From NCBI GenBank assembly GCA_010093705.1, contig MU006092.1, positions 192,623 through 256,622 of the forward strand: a DNA stretch of 64,000 bases, in the 5' to 3' direction. Shown piece after piece: positions 10,463-60,792 of this stretch (position 1 is its first letter; the number at the start of each line of letters is the position of its first letter). This DNA comes from Patellaria atrata CBS 101060 (taxonomy: Eukaryota). A program made the translations under genes and the position numbers. A model generated the notes under the pieces. The model did no database searches. It worked only from the letters and a program-made list of their open reading frames with translations, and had not been told where the DNA came from.

Positions 10463-10765
10463 GTATACTTGAACTGTACAGTATGCTTGAACTGTACAGT
10501 ATGCTTGAACTGTACAGTATGCTTGAACTGTACAGTATGCTTGAACTGTACAGTATGCTTGAACTGTACANNNNNNNNNNNNNNNNNNNNNNNNNNNNNN
10601 NNNNNNNNNNNNNNNNNNNNNNNNNNNNNNNNNNNNNNNNNNNNNNNNNNNNNNNNNNNNNNNNNNNNNNGTACAGTATGCTTGAACTGTACAGTATGCT
10701 TGAACTGTACAGTATGCTTGAACTGTACAGTATGCTTGAACTGTACAGTATGCTTGAACTGTACA
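10463..10765. repeat. 18-bp tandem repeat (GTATGCTTGAACTGTACA)n interrupted by a 100-N assembly gap
   Basis: Six units lie before the gap (the first is a GTATAC variant) and five full units plus a partial one lie after it. The true copy number is unknown. Confidence 0.98.
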
Positions 10766-56781: not shown

Positions 56782-58227
56782 ATGGCACCACGAACGCACC
56801 GTATTTCCGTGCCAACGACCGCGCATCTCCCTGATACTCACCGTCTCTCTCCGACCAGTTCAGAGGTGGTAAAAGCACTATCAAGGCTCACACGTCCCTC
56901 TCTAACCTCCATAACCCTCGAATGGCTTCAAGAAAGGAATATAGATCGGTGTAAACCATACCTTAGCTCGGATCCCGAATACAACGTGGAAGAAGAGGAT
57001 GATGCGCCGTACTCCGCAGCACAAAGCATCGAAGAGCTCAGGGAATCATGGACGGAACTAAAGACGCAAAAAGGCGGTAAGAGAGAAGTGGTTGACAGGA
57101 TACTACAAGGCGACTGGCGACGAGGTATCACACTATACCAGCTCGCAATGGTCGATTCACAGCATCTCCTCCACCACCCCAACTCGTTACGCTGGGCCGC
57201 CTTGCGCCTAGCCAAAATTACCAGCACATCCAAAGAAATCCTTCACGATACCGACTCCAACCCTCTTCCCCGCTTCAACGGGAAAGTCTTCCTCCGTAAC
57301 ATGGCCCGCGAAATCGCCCCGGTCACAAAAGCACACTTCTACATAACACGCTTGAAATCTCTCCCGCTGACGCTTCTTCGGATCCACCTGCACGACTCTC
57401 CCTACAATACTCAATCCTCGCTGCGGACCAAAACTACCCCCTCATCAAGCTCAACAGCAATCTTCATCGCCTTCCCCGACGGCTCTCCCCACGTCTACGT
57501 CTCCCTCGCGGCCTCCGCAGCCGGCGGGGATGGTCGAAGTCTGCGCAAAGTCGTCATCGAAGCGATTCCAAAGGCGCTCTCTCAGCCGCAGGCGCGGTAT
57601 ACATTATACCCGACCTCACTGAGCGCACGTTCGCTACAAGCCCTTCTCGCGCTCCGCGGGCCGGGGAGGAGCAGTGCGGCACAAGGAGGCTGGAGCATCT
57701 TTGCAGACAACAGTTTCGAGGGTGATGCGCTGGATTATCGGATACCTGCGCTGAAACCCCCACAGGAAAGTTTAACCAAAGATGTAGATCCAGAGGAGGA
57801 CAAAGAGAACACAAACTCAGCAGATCCGAAAGCGAATCAGAAGCGGGCACGTGGTCTGAACGGTAGCGAGGACCCTAGCGTTCAAAAACGGAGGAAATTG
57901 GTTGCGGCTGCGCGTTTCGGGACATCTGCACTCGCTGACGACGGTAAAGGCCTTGATCGGCTTGACGTTAGGATAGAAGATCCCTTCGATCCTGATATCG
58001 GTATTCCGCTTCCCGGAGACGTCGAAGGCGACGAGTGGAAACCCGACGTCCGTCTCTCGTTCCACGGCGCGCACGTCTTTGCTGGTATCAGGAAGCTAGT
58101 GGAGGCAGGGGTCGTGGACGGCGAAAAGATGCCCGGATGGATGACGGGCGAGGCAGGCGTGAGCGTTGGCGTTGTTAGAGACGGCCGGATCAAGGCGAGA
58201 GAGGGTAGAGAGGGTAAAGTATCTTAA
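56782..58227 (+). CDS. CHL4: Inner kinetochore protein CENP-N/Chl4/Mis15
   Basis: KREVVDRILQGDWRRGITLYQLAMVD, LSARSLQALLALRGPGRSSAAQGGWSIFA and VRLSFHGAHVFAGIRKLVEAGVVDGEKMPGWMTGE. Intronless. Confidence 0.9.
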   Translation: MAPRTHRISVPTTAHLPDTHRLSPTSSEVVKALSRLTRPSLTSITLEWLQERNIDRCKPYLSSDPEYNVEEEDDAPYSAAQSIEELRESWTELKTQKGGKREVVDRILQGDWRRGITLYQLAMVDSQHLLHHPNSLRWAALRLAKITSTSKEILHDTDSNPLPRFNGKVFLRNMAREIAPVTKAHFYITRLKSLPLTLLRIHLHDSPYNTQSSLRTKTTPSSSSTAIFIAFPDGSPHVYVSLAASAAGGDGRSLRKVVIEAIPKALSQPQARYTLYPTSLSARSLQALLALRGPGRSSAAQGGWSIFADNSFEGDALDYRIPALKPPQESLTKDVDPEEDKENTNSADPKANQKRARGLNGSEDPSVQKRRKLVAAARFGTSALADDGKGLDRLDVRIEDPFDPDIGIPLPGDVEGDEWKPDVRLSFHGAHVFAGIRKLVEAGVVDGEKMPGWMTGEAGVSVGVVRDGRIKAREGREGKVS

Positions 58228-58652
58228 AGGGTTCGGGATGTAGGGAGGGGAACTGGATAGGGTTGGTTGGCTGTGTTTGGCGTTTGGACCCGGGGAATGA
58301 TAGGGTCGGTTATACCCTAGGCCGTGGATCGGATGGAGATGTGGTCGGGTGTATCGTAACTTAGTTAAGGGTTGGAAATAGCATCTTTGTATAAAGCGAT
58401 GGATGAAACACCGCACTTACGCTCACATTGACTTTGCCCATGTGCGTGATTTCCACGATAAGACGCTCTCATTTACTTTCCCCCACGTGCTCATTTTCCA
58501 CGATAAGATACGCCAGCCTCTATTTCAGTGAGGAGTTCAGACGGTAGGTTGTAATCTCACTCACCTCTCAACAGCACACTATATTATTACGTCCCCGATC
58601 ACTGAACTCAACCTGCGCCTTATATACAATCGATACCCGACAGATTTATCAT

Positions 58653-58788
58653 TGGCAGCTTGGCTGAGTGGTGAGGTAATAGCTTGGAATCTCCTTTGTC
58701 GCTGGTCAATATCCTATGTCCTGGGTTCGAGACTCGCCCAGCGAAGCTGCCAGATGTTAATAACACTTATCAAACCACCTGTATTTTT
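58653..58788 (+). ncRNA. Putative RNA polymerase III transcript, tRNA-related but not a canonical cloverleaf (panhandle RNA, tRNA pseudogene or SINE-like head)
   Basis: TATATA at 58621, box A TGGCTGAGTGG at 58661-58671 and box B GGTTCGAGAC at 58724-58733. The terminal stem is TGGCAGCTT/AAGCTGCCA, with T5 at 58784-58788 followed by a long T-rich tract. Confidence 0.65.
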
Positions 58789-59317
58789 GCAATTTTTTTT
58801 TTATTTTTGTTTAATTTCTTGAATCTTTTTTTCGTTATTTTTTATTGTCTATACTAACTCCGCTTACACAACAAGACCTGCAGGCCCAGTGAAGAGGATA
58901 GACAGGAGTGAGAGGAGATTGGTGGTTTGAAGGGGGAGAGGTTGAAGAACGAATCTTAAGCGGGTAAAATGATAGGGATGACAAAGTCGACGGAAATCAC
59001 ATAAGGACTATTAATAATGTGATATAGAAATGGAGTAAGTCCCCTGCTTCTTGCATGTGGCTTCACAACCCAACCAAACTTGACAGTGGAAAATGTGCTC
59101 TCAAACGTGTAGACGTGAGTGCAAAGAATTTTGGGCAAACCTTACTATTCAAGACACTAGGGTTTTCAGATATATTCCCTTGAACCCGTATGTTCTATAA
59201 TGAACACAAGGATATCCAATACACCGTCGGACACATGTTAAAGGGGATCATATATGGCACATAACATCGAACCCGTATATCCTGACCTCACACCCATCCA
59301 CCTCCTCGTGACATTCT

Positions 59318-60792
59318 CTACCTCATCCCGTCACTCTCCACATCCTCAGCTTCGCTCCCCAGCTCCTTCTCCAGCAGATCCCCTTCCTCTTCATCCTCAT
59401 CATCATCCTCCTCGACATCCTCCATCTCCTCCCCGCGATCCTCATCCCCACTACTCTCGCTCGGACTCCCGCCATCACTCTCATCATCGGGTTGATAATC
59501 CTCTTCTTCCTCGTCTTCTTCATCTTGTAACATCCGTTCCGCTTTCTGCAACTCCCCTTCGCCGTCTTCATCTTCGGCCGCTTGTTCTTCTTCACCCTTG
59601 GGCGCGTTGACGTTGTATTTCTTCGCCTTCCGTGTCGCGGCCAGCGAGGCATCGTTGAGTCTGCGTTGCTTGACGTAAGAGTCGATGCCAGCGTAGTCTA
59701 TCTGGTCTATCATCGAAAACTCGATATCCTGCTCTGGCTCCTGTATGGAGATGACAAGGTTGAACGTCCGTTGCAATATGGAAGTATATGAAACTGAAGA
59801 TATTGATTCGGGAGGGAAGAACGCTAATGGCTTCTTAAATCCGAAAAGGATCCCGCTCGATAAGAAGAAAAGATATCCCTCCTTACTTCCCCTGAATGCT
59901 TTCACATGGAACGCCTTTTCTCCTTTCCTGTGGGATTGCGGGATGGCCGATGCGAAGTCGGACGCGGAGGGGAATATCACTTCCTTTCCGAAGTTGTGGA
60001 GGTGGTTGTTTAATGCTTGGCCGACTTTGGCTGGACTGGGGTCTTCACCCTCTTTCAGAGCTTTGCCGCTGGGTTCGTCGTAGGTCCAGACGATGGGTTC
60101 GGGTGCCGAGGAGTCTGCAGGGGGAGGCGTTATGCCATCGCCCCCACGGGGGATTATTACGAAGTTGTGTTGGCGTTTTGCTTTCTCGGGTACGGGAAGG
60201 CAGAAGACTTGGTCTATATAGAGCCACATCAGCATTAAGGATCCATATCACGTAGAGATAAGTTTGAGAGATAGGTGTACGCACCGATATCTTTCCAACT
60301 GACGCCGAACTCAATCTCCCCGCTACTACTTTGTGCTCTGAGACCTCCTCCTTTTCCACCTATGAGCTGGAGGTGCAGCTTCTTGCGTTGCGGCATAGAG
60401 AAACTGGCATCGGGTACTGAGTATGTTGCTGCGGCAGATTGTACTCGCCATGCTTCTGAGCTTGAACCGTTCGTTGCGGTTCCGTTGTCGAGTTTTCGCT
60501 TCTTGGAGGCGGGCGCGTCGTGCGAGGGGAGAGCGATGGAGGTGGAGGATCGTTTGATGCCGATTATATGGGTAGAGATGTCGGTGAGGAGCGGGGTAAT
60601 GGGATATTTAGCTATAAGCTATTAGTACTTCTATATACTTAGATCATGCATGGATCGCTACAAAGTGTTGTGCGTGTAAAATCTGAGTATTGTAGAGGTA
60701 TACTTGCCTATTGCGCCCTGTATCTGTTTCTGTAGATCGGGACGATCTGAGAACGCGTCCGAGATCTCCACCGGCAGTTTCAAAGACGACAT
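59318..60792 (-). CDS. RTT106: Histone chaperone Rtt106 (double PH domain, acidic tail). Exons 60792-60708, 60611-60285 and 60213-59318.
   Basis: DASFSMPQRKKLHL, DQVFCLPVPEKAKRQHNF, FHVKAFRGSKEGYLFFL..GILFGFKKPL and SYTSILQRTFNL..EFSMIDQIDYAGIDSYV, followed by a D/E-rich C-terminus. Confidence 0.93.

What the first reader, a model, noticed from the sequence alone, without database searches (positions are those of the whole stretch)
58621..58850. Pol III-type small RNA gene with a vault-RNA-like panhandle architecture between CHL4 and RTT106
Seen: TATATA ~32 bp upstream, box A (TGGCTGAGTGG), box B (GGTTCGAGAC) and an oligo-T terminator followed by many backup T runs. The 5' 19 nt (TGGCAGCTTGGCTGAGTGG) pair with the 3' end (TCGCCCAGCGAAGCTGCCA) in a perfect 9-bp helix extended by 4 more pairs plus wobbles, which sequesters box A. 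A cloverleaf fits poorly: the best T stem (CTGGG/CCCAG) has an 11-nt loop, and 3 extra nt precede the acceptor strand. The 5' part does resemble a tRNA-Ser. Knowledge: metazoan vault RNAs are ~100-nt type-2 Pol III RNAs with this layout, and as I recall their box B region reads GGTTCGAGACCCGC (here GGTTCGAGACTCGC). Vault RNAs are not known in ascomycetes. Inference: this may be an undescribed tRNA-derived structured ncRNA, probably convergent on the vault-RNA fold rather than homologous to it.
Basis: partly seen in the sequence, partly recalled or inferred. Interest (0 to 1): 0.75.

Follow-up and report, generated by a model that had tools for sequence, protein, structure and literature searches.

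The report
Worn-out serine-tRNA-like gene relic
Between two fungal genes lies a single-copy remnant of a tRNA gene that keeps its start and stop signals for RNA polymerase III but can no longer fold as a tRNA; it is an ordinary kind of relic, not a fungal vault RNA.

Summary
The unit clearly comes from a tRNA gene. It is the only box A plus box B unit in the 64-kb window.

It is not a tRNA. ARAGORN, with or without introns, and Rfam find nothing: no tRNA, Vault or Afu_ match even at E<=10 on 118 bases. About 7 extra bases separate the T arm from the acceptor strand, and the anticodon arm is gone. A tRNA-Ser(GGA) reading with a 10-nt intron appears only below threshold and only after removing 6-8 bases. 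Random middles do as well in 489 of 1000 trials.

The rod-like "panhandle" fold is the predicted minimum (-39.5 kcal/mol). With the acceptor stem kept, 255 of 1000 interior shuffles fold as well, and 156 of 1000 extend the stem as far.

The unit is single-copy in the source's DNA contigs, and I found no target-site duplication of 9 bases or more. I could obtain no expression or orthologue data.

Best reading: a tRNA-gene relic with an intact Pol III promoter, of the yeast ZOD1 type. Interest is low.

The parts
58621..58626 (+). TATATA, TATA-like element about 28-33 nt before the first base of the tRNA-like body
   Evidence: That fungal tRNA genes of the S. pombe type use such an upstream TATA is recalled, not tested.
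58653..58661 (+). 5' arm of the terminal helix; 58654-58660 is the former acceptor 5' strand
   Evidence: (I1). Pair probability about 1.0.
58661..58671 (+). Box A (TGGCTGAGTGG), former D-arm region
   Evidence: It is the only box A found upstream of a box B-like site in the window.
58663..58666 (+). GCTG, which pairs with CAGC 58739-58742 (panhandle extension)
   Evidence: probability 0.98-1.0. Not beyond chance.
58670..58675 (+). GGTGAG, which pairs with CTCGCC 58733-58738 in the predicted minimum-energy rod
58686..58699 (+). Possible remnant of an anticodon loop (GGA 58686-58688) followed by a possible 10-nt intron (58690-58699)
   Evidence: ARAGORN makes this reading only at 97% of its threshold and only after removal of 6-8 nt at 58734-58744. 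Control: 489 of 1000 shuffled middles also give a call, and 37 of 1000 are called Ser.
58699..58705 (+). TCGCTGG, the exact reverse complement of 58738-58744
   Evidence: A perfect 7-nt inverted copy of the junction zone occurs in 13 of 1000 shuffles (post hoc). It is not used in the predicted ensemble.
58721..58737 (+). T-arm remnant: CTGGG, loop TTCGAGA, CTCGC. It has 1 mismatch and 2 G.U pairs and contains box B (58724-58733).
58738..58744 (+). CCAGCGA, about 7 extra bases between the T arm and the acceptor 3' strand; these break the tRNA architecture
   Evidence: All 7 tRNA-Ser calls in the deletion scan need removal of 6-8 nt within 58734-58744.
58744..58752 (+). 3' arm of the terminal helix; 58745-58751 is the former acceptor 3' strand
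58753..58783 (+). 31-nt trailer with no T run of 4 or more and no predicted stable structure
58784..58843 (+). Oligo-T terminators: T5 58784-58788, T10 58793-58802, then T5, T7 and T6 runs
   Evidence: the repeat finder shows a 31-nt T-rich unit twice, at 74% identity (D1).

Best explanation
This is a single-copy relic of a tRNA gene, most likely a long-variable-arm (class II) tRNA-Ser gene. It lies in the 1.1-kb gap between the convergent CHL4/CENP-N-like and RTT106-like genes. The DNA signals for RNA polymerase III are intact: a TATA-like box near -30, box A, box B with tRNA-like spacing, and T5/T10 terminators. The former acceptor stem is also intact. The tRNA body is broken. About 7 extra bases sit between the T arm and the acceptor strand, the anticodon arm is no longer recognisable, and the D and T stems are weak.

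Inferred mechanism: TFIIIC still binds boxes A and B, TFIIIB sits at the TATA, and Pol III can make a primary transcript of about 135-150 nt that ends at 58788 or 58802. With the cloverleaf pairings lost, that RNA collapses in silico into a rod closed by the old acceptor stem. This is a by-product of decay, not a selected fold. Such an RNA cannot be a decoder and is probably a poor RNase P/Z substrate and unstable. Any remaining role would be at the DNA level, as a TFIIIC/Pol III-occupied site like ZOD1 or iYGR033C in yeast.

Shown here: the motifs, the failure of all tRNA and RNA-family models, single copy, and the fold statistics. Inferred: factor binding, transcription and the fate of the RNA.
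For: All motifs are at the stated coordinates, and this is the only box A plus box B unit in 64 kb.

It is not a tRNA and matches no known RNA family. ARAGORN gives 0 genes with and without the intron option. Rfam gives 0 hits at gathering score. At E<=10 it gives no tRNA, Vault or Afu_ hit on 901 or on 118 bases. No single deletion rescues it: 0 of 4740 deletion variants are called at ARAGORN's default threshold.

Traces of tRNA-Ser descent: at 97% of threshold, 13 of 4740 variants are called. Seven of these are tRNA-Ser(GGA) with a 10-nt intron at the canonical 37/38 site, and all of them remove 6-8 nt in 58734-58744. A Ser call arises in 37 of 1000 shuffled middles.

The fold is not special once the acceptor stem is allowed for. 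With the terminal stem kept, interior shuffles average -37.45 kcal/mol (sd 3.44) against -39.5 observed, and 255 of 1000 fold as well. In 156 of 1000 the stem extends by >=10 pairs.

Single copy: in both DNA runs of the source, one long contig spans the element with its flanks. The summed depth in bin 58614-58764 equals that one contig's depth at >=80% likeness. There is no second copy in the window and no flanking direct repeat of 9 nt or more.

Precedent: ZOD1 is an ancient tRNA-Ile gene weakly transcribed by Pol III, and iYGR033C derives from a tDNA-Arg (PMC5356446, passages read). Earlier unchecked notes on this genome describe several other worn tRNA-type Pol III units.
Against: The preservation is uneven. 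Box A, box B, the TATA, the terminators and all 7 (9) acceptor pairs are perfect, while the middle is unrecognisable. Uniform neutral decay would not obviously give this pattern. It could instead mean selection on transcription or on the terminal helix. I could not quantify this because no ancestor or paralogue sequence was available.

The 7 extra bases are an exact inverted copy of 58699-58705. This occurs in only 13 of 1000 shuffles (a post hoc test) and could be a real helix.

The whole-sequence fold z-score is -2.81, with 3 of 200 shuffles as good.

The tRNA-Ser assignment is weak. The native middle does worse than many random ones: 194 of 1000 shuffled middles are called at the default threshold, where the native one is not. 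The likeness of the 5' half to tRNA-Ser rests on recall, not on a tool.

No orthologue, expression or occupancy data exist.
Confidence: 0.6

Rival explanations
1. It is a lineage-specific functional Pol III ncRNA exapted from a tRNA gene. The RNA folds as a rod or an alternative two-helix form and acts through a protein partner, as the tRNA-Ala-derived 5' domain of rodent BC1 RNA does.
For: The promoter, terminators and a perfect 9-bp terminal helix are intact while the tRNA body is lost. The rod is the dominant predicted fold, with pair probabilities of about 1.0 and a whole-sequence z of -2.81. The 7-nt insert is an exact inverted copy of an inner segment, seen in 13 of 1000 shuffles. The unit is single-copy, like a gene. 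[quoted passage not shown]
Against: The interior fold and the stem extension are at chance level once the acceptor stem is kept: 255 of 1000 and 156 of 1000 shuffles match them. No RNA family matches. Nothing related was found near the RTT106 relatives: 0 of 15 metagenome loci hold the element, a tRNA or any box A plus box B unit. Those loci are only 42-59% identical in protein and also lack CHL4, so they say little.
Confidence: 0.2
2. It is an old, solitary copy of a tRNA-derived SINE-like retroposon of the AfuSINE2 type: a tRNA-like head, a short unrelated tail and an oligo-T tract.
For: The layout is a tRNA-like head with boxes A and B, a 31-nt unrelated trailer and T runs. AfuSINE2 elements of Aspergillus fumigatus are 140-493 bp, low in copy number and come from several tRNAs including tRNA-Ser (PMC5063351, abstract and passages). 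Earlier unchecked notes report low-copy SINE-like tRNA-headed repeats in this genome.
Against: No other contig of the source lies on the element at >=80% likeness. There is no second copy in the window and no look-alike in other scanned windows. No flanking direct repeat of 9 nt or more was found. The unit is at the bottom of the SINE size range and has no body beyond 31 nt.
Confidence: 0.12
3. It is a working but unusual intron-containing tRNA-Ser(GGA).
For: ARAGORN draws a tRNA-Ser(GGA) with a 10-nt intron at 37/38 at 97% of its threshold, once 6-8 nt are removed. The intron holds TCC, which is complementary to the anticodon (read from the sequence).
Against: The native sequence gets no call from ARAGORN until the threshold drops to 85%, and that call is a different, spurious type. 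Rfam's tRNA model gives nothing at E<=10. The 7 extra bases break the stacking of acceptor stem on T arm. The variable region has no hairpin. GGA is not the usual eukaryotic serine anticodon (recalled).
Confidence: 0.03
4. It is a homologue of metazoan vault RNA.
For: Only the generic type-2 promoter boxes and an end-to-end helix.
Against: Rfam's Vault model gives no match at E<=10. Vault particles are described as lost in fungi (PMC3762200, abstract and passages).
Confidence: 0.01

Closest known systems
ZOD1 and iYGR033C of Saccharomyces cerevisiae (ancient tRNA genes still bound or weakly transcribed by Pol III)
   Same: Both are single-copy loci derived from a tRNA gene. They keep the internal promoter boxes and no longer encode a usable tRNA (PMC5356446).
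   Different: The ancestors differ: tRNA-Ile and tRNA-Arg there, probably tRNA-Ser here. Occupancy and weak transcription are shown in yeast and are untested here. This unit keeps a perfect acceptor helix.
BC1 RNA 5' domain (rodents)
   Same: A tRNA-derived, Pol III-transcribed sequence that folds as an extended stem-loop instead of a cloverleaf (PMC4923876).
   Different: BC1 is expressed, conserved among rodents and has a known role. Here the rod is only a prediction and is not better than chance.
AfuSINE2 tRNA-related SINEs of Aspergillus fumigatus
   Same: A tRNA-like head with boxes A and B, a tRNA-unrelated stretch and an oligo-T tract, at low copy number (PMC5063351).
   Different: Here no second copy and no target-site duplication of 9 nt or more was found. 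The unrelated part is only 31 nt.
Vault RNA (Rfam RF00006)
   Same: Type-2 Pol III boxes, a size of about 100 nt, and 5' and 3' ends that pair.
   Different: The covariance model gives no match. Vaults are reported absent from fungi. The likeness is limited to features that any tRNA-derived unit has.

Membership tests
Canonical tRNA (Rfam RF00005 / ARAGORN cloverleaf) | Cloverleaf recognised by a tRNA detector, canonical intron allowed | tested here: not met
   ARAGORN finds 0 genes in the window with and without -i. The native element gets no call at 97-90% of threshold.
Canonical tRNA (Rfam RF00005 / ARAGORN cloverleaf) | Match to the tRNA covariance model | tested here: not met
   No RF00005 hit at E<=10 on 901 nt or on 118 nt.
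Canonical tRNA (Rfam RF00005 / ARAGORN cloverleaf) | T arm directly abuts the acceptor 3' strand (7+5 bp coaxial stack) | tested here: not met
   About 7 extra bases (58738-58744) lie between them. A tRNA-Ser call needs their removal.
Type-2 Pol III transcription unit | Box A and box B in tRNA-like spacing, followed by an oligo-T terminator | tested here: met
   Box A is at 58661, box B is at 58724 (63 nt start to start), and T5 and T10 begin at 58784 and 58793.
Type-2 Pol III transcription unit | Pol III/TFIIIC occupancy and a transcript | not testable with these tools
   No ChIP or RNA data were reachable. See Tried and rejected.
Vault RNA (RF00006) | Match to the Vault covariance model | tested here: not met
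   No hit at E<=10.
Vault RNA (RF00006) | Host encodes major vault protein | not testable with these tools
   No genome is held for this window. The literature describes vaults as lost in fungi (PMC3762200).
Vault RNA (RF00006) | Terminal panhandle as a selected structure | tested here: inconclusive
   The panhandle is predicted with probability of about 1.0. Its part beyond the old acceptor stem is at chance level. No covariation data exist.
tRNA-derived SINE | Multiple dispersed copies | tested here: not met
   One contig per run covers the element at >=80% likeness. No copy in the window. No look-alike in other scanned windows. Copies under 80% identity could not be sought.
tRNA-derived SINE | Target-site duplications | tested here: not met
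   No flanking direct repeat of 9 nt or more. Shorter ones cannot be told from chance.
tRNA-gene relic (ZOD1 type) | Sequence descent from a tRNA gene | tested here: met
   Acceptor helix, box A/D region and T arm/box B stand in tRNA order. ARAGORN gives sub-threshold tRNA-Ser readings after a 6-8-nt removal. The choice of tRNA-Ser is weakly supported.
tRNA-gene relic (ZOD1 type) | An intact tRNA gene at the orthologous site in relatives | not testable with these tools
   No related fungal genome was reachable. The 15 metagenome loci with RTT106 relatives are too distant and lack CHL4.

The most novel reading that the evidence does not exclude
The unit is a young, lineage-specific Pol III RNA gene made from an intron-bearing tRNA-Ser gene. 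A 7-base insertion, an exact inverted copy of the old anticodon-stem strand, lets the RNA choose between two folds. One is a locally formed 7+5-bp tRNA-like minihelix (58699-58744) that would form first during transcription. The other is a more stable end-to-end rod that hides box A and the T loop. The choice between the two would decide how the RNA is processed or which protein binds it.
Probability: 0.12. Interest if true: 0.5.

Novelty: new member of a known kind. Interest (0 to 1): 0.2.

Why it matters
As a relic it matters little. It adds one more example to the worn tRNA-type Pol III units that earlier notes report in this fungus. Such sites can still recruit TFIIIC and Pol III and so act as chromatin landmarks between genes. 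It would matter more if the RNA proved to be expressed and conserved, because tRNA-derived regulatory Pol III RNAs of the BC1 type are not an established class in filamentous fungi. The practical lesson concerns method. An end-to-end helix in a tRNA-derived sequence is inherited from the acceptor stem, so it should be discounted before calling a new fold.

Tried and rejected
- **Whole-genome search:** no genome is held for this window, so copy number and paralogous tRNA-Ser genes could not be examined directly.
- **Sequencing runs:** only 2 runs of one sample and one study hold the stretch, and they proved to be DNA contigs of the source. No RNA holder is listed, so nothing can be said on expression.
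- **Metagenome DNA pattern** (box A, gap of 45-70, box B plus derived 3' bases): 0 matches. The same pattern in prokaryote genome contigs: 0 matches.
- **RTT106-like protein in metagenome contigs:** 15 loci at 42-59% identity. Of the 15, 0 hold the element (only T-run matches), 0 hold a CHL4 relative, 0 hold a tRNA and 0 hold a box A plus box B unit. They are too distant to bear on conservation.
- **Earlier findings by place, sequence and relatives:** nothing for this locus.
- **tRNA-Sec-like 9/4 fold and a leader-promoter for a downstream snoRNA:** rejected on reading the sequence. No TCA anticodon loop stands behind a U. Only 31 nt lie before the first terminator, and they hold no C/D box.
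- **10-nt inverted repeat 58770-58779 / 58921-58930 (I7):** about 0.4 such repeats are expected by chance in 900 nt (my estimate), so I dropped it.
- **Paper searches:** these were for comparators, not an exhaustive search for this element.

Full report
**Setting**

The window is eukaryotic and no genome is held for it. The element lies in a 1.1-kb gap between two convergent genes. On the + strand is an ORF at 56782-58227 that matches Pfam CENP-N / "Kinetochore protein CHL4 like" (E 1.1e-120). On the - strand is an ORF at 59318-60235 that matches the Rtt106-like middle domain (E 7.4e-26).

**The observation**

- TATATA at 58621-58626
- box A at 58661-58671
- box B at 58724-58733
- T5 at 58784-58788 and T10 at 58793-58802
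- three further T runs up to 58843

The ends pair as described. There are 9 perfect pairs (58653-58661 with 58744-58752), then a G.G mismatch, then GCTG/CAGC. The repeat finder reports this as a 14-nt inverted repeat, 93% complementary. The unit is not a chance assembly. Of 8 box B-like sites on both strands of the 64-kb window, it is the only one with a box A within 110 nt upstream.

**It is not a tRNA or any curated RNA family**

- ARAGORN finds no tRNA anywhere in the window, with or without its intron option.
- Rfam 15 gives no match at gathering scores.
- With permissive filters at E<=10, Rfam gives no tRNA, tRNA-Sec, Vault, Y RNA or Afu_ match on 901 bases or on the 118 bases of the element alone. 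The three weak hits are to unrelated bacterial and Plasmodium families in the AT-rich flank.

**Where it comes from**

Read against tRNA architecture, the order of parts is that of a tRNA gene:
- acceptor 5' strand, 58654-58660
- box A / D region
- a middle of 42 nt
- a T arm with the canonical 7-nt loop (CTGGG, TTCGAGA, CTCGC; one mismatch and two G.U pairs)
- seven extra bases, CCAGCGA (58738-58744)
- acceptor 3' strand, 58745-58751

I therefore tested whether a non-canonical insert hides a real tRNA here. I made all 4740 single deletions of 1-79 nt inside 58654-58752 and ran ARAGORN with introns allowed.

At the default threshold, 0 of 4740 variants are called. At 97% of threshold, 13 of 4740 are called. 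Seven are tRNA-Ser(GGA) with a 10-nt intron (58690-58699) at the canonical 37/38 position. All seven remove 6-8 nt within 58734-58744. The other six are tRNA-Ile(AAT) (4) and tRNA-Asp(GTC) (2). The native sequence is not called until the threshold drops to 85%, and then as a different type.

The control limits this reading. I kept the acceptor, D and T parts, removed 58737-58743 and shuffled the 42-nt middle. Of 1000 shuffles, 489 get some tRNA call at 97% of threshold. At the default threshold 194 of 1000 are called, where the native middle gets none. Ser is called in 37 of 1000, and Ser or Leu in 57 of 1000.

So the scaffold is tRNA-derived, but the anticodon arm is no better than random sequence. 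The serine assignment is only mildly supported.

**The fold**

It consists of the 8-bp terminal stem, GCTG/CAGC, GGTGAG/CTCGCC and weaker inner pairs. The terminal pairs and the extension have probabilities of about 1.0. The trailer does not change this. Alternative folds are much weaker:

| Fold | Energy (kcal/mol) |
|---|---|
| Predicted rod (panhandle) | -39.5 |
| Terminal stem plus the 11-nt-loop T hairpin | -32.5 |
| Terminal stem plus the inner 7-bp helix and T arm | -28.3 |
| Cloverleaf-like fold | -18.8 |

The whole-sequence z-score is -2.81, with 3 of 200 shuffles as good. That signal comes from the acceptor stem, which any tRNA-derived sequence has. I kept the terminal stem and shuffled the interior. 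The mean was then -37.45 (sd 3.44), and 255 of 1000 shuffles fold at least as well. In 156 of 1000 the terminal stem extends by 10 or more pairs, as in the native sequence.

The vault-like panhandle beyond the old acceptor stem is therefore what chance gives. Hiding box A in a helix needs no special explanation.

**One feature that does stand out**

The seven extra bases (58738-58744) are the exact reverse complement of 58699-58705. A perfect 7-nt inverted copy of the junction zone occurs in 13 of 1000 interior shuffles. I made this test after seeing the feature, so it counts as a lead only. It may record how the insertion arose, as a templated inverted copy. It may instead be a real helix that, with the T arm, forms a 7+5-bp tRNA-like minihelix. 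The equilibrium prediction does not use it.

**Copy number and mobility**

The only two runs that hold the stretch are DNA contigs from one sample, probably the source of the window. In each run one long contig runs through the element with its flanks. At >=80% likeness, the summed depth in bin 58614-58764 equals that one contig's depth: 425.3 in X1 and 310.7 in X2. So no second contig lies on the element. Extra short contigs pile up only on the T runs and on the acidic tail of the RTT106-like gene.

No other copy exists in the window. No look-alike was found in other scanned windows. No flanking direct repeat of 9 nt or more was found. Copies below 80% identity elsewhere in the genome cannot be excluded.

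**Conservation and expression**

Neither could be obtained.
- A DNA pattern for the element finds nothing in metagenome contigs or in prokaryote genome contigs.
- Fifteen metagenome loci encode RTT106 relatives at 42-59% identity. None of the 15 has the element, a CHL4 relative, a tRNA or a box A plus box B unit in the flanks held, 91,738 bases in all. Synteny itself is not kept in these loci, so they say nothing about close relatives.

**Comparison with known things**

The nearest known kind is the tRNA-gene relic that keeps its Pol III promoter. ZOD1 is described as an ancient tRNA-Ile gene weakly transcribed by Pol III, and iYGR033C as derived from a tDNA-Arg (PMC5356446, passages in section 3).

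BC1 RNA shows that a retroposed tRNA can become a stem-loop domain of a functional Pol III RNA (PMC4923876, introduction passages and reference list). That is the model for the rival reading.

AfuSINE2 elements of Aspergillus fumigatus are low-copy tRNA-headed units of 140-493 bp with 4-14-bp duplications (PMC5063351, abstract and passages). The present unit lacks a detectable second copy and any duplication of 9 nt or more.

Vault particles are described as lost in fungi (PMC3762200, abstract and passages). The Vault model does not match.

Earlier unchecked notes on this genome list at least seven other tRNA-type Pol III-like units that are not tRNAs. This makes the present one look like part of a common background in this fungus.

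**Verdict**

| Reading | Odds |
|---|---|
| Single-copy relic of a tRNA (probably tRNA-Ser) gene with an intact Pol III promoter, terminator and acceptor helix | about 0.6 |
| Exapted functional RNA | about 0.2 |
| Lone SINE-like copy | about 0.12 |
| Odd but working tRNA | about 0.03 |
| Vault RNA homologue | about 0.01 |

Points from recall, not from any call:
- the S. pombe-type need for an upstream TATA
- the usual Pol III start some 10-12 nt before box A
- species differences in the minimal T run
- RNase P/Z recognising the acceptor/T-arm stack
- the rarity of GGA serine anticodons in eukaryotes

Noticed in passing
window 58437-58463 and 58482-58508: A 27-nt direct repeat (81% identity, 45 nt apart) about 150-200 nt upstream of the element. 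Each copy has a CAYGTG E-box-like core and TTTCCACGATAAGA, which contains a GATA-type site. These look like promoter elements, yet they lie in a gap between two gene 3' ends (D2).
   Followed up: no
window 58783-58844: The backup terminators are two copies of a 31-nt T-rich unit (74% identity) in tandem (D1).
   Followed up: no
window 10571-10670: A run of 100 N, which is an assembly gap or masked stretch.
   Followed up: no
window 59384-59432: The acidic, low-complexity C-terminal coding part of the RTT106-like gene attracts pieces of several unrelated long contigs at 80% likeness. These are probably other genes with acidic tails (tables 7 and 8).
   Followed up: no
L001-L015: In 0 of 15 metagenome contigs that encode RTT106 relatives (42-59% identity) is a CHL4/CENP-N relative found within the flanks held. 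The CHL4-RTT106 adjacency is therefore not widely kept.
   Followed up: partly
window 58770-58779 and 58921-58930: A perfect 10-nt inverted repeat joins the trailer of the element to a site beyond the T runs. By my estimate this is near chance expectation (I7).
   Followed up: no
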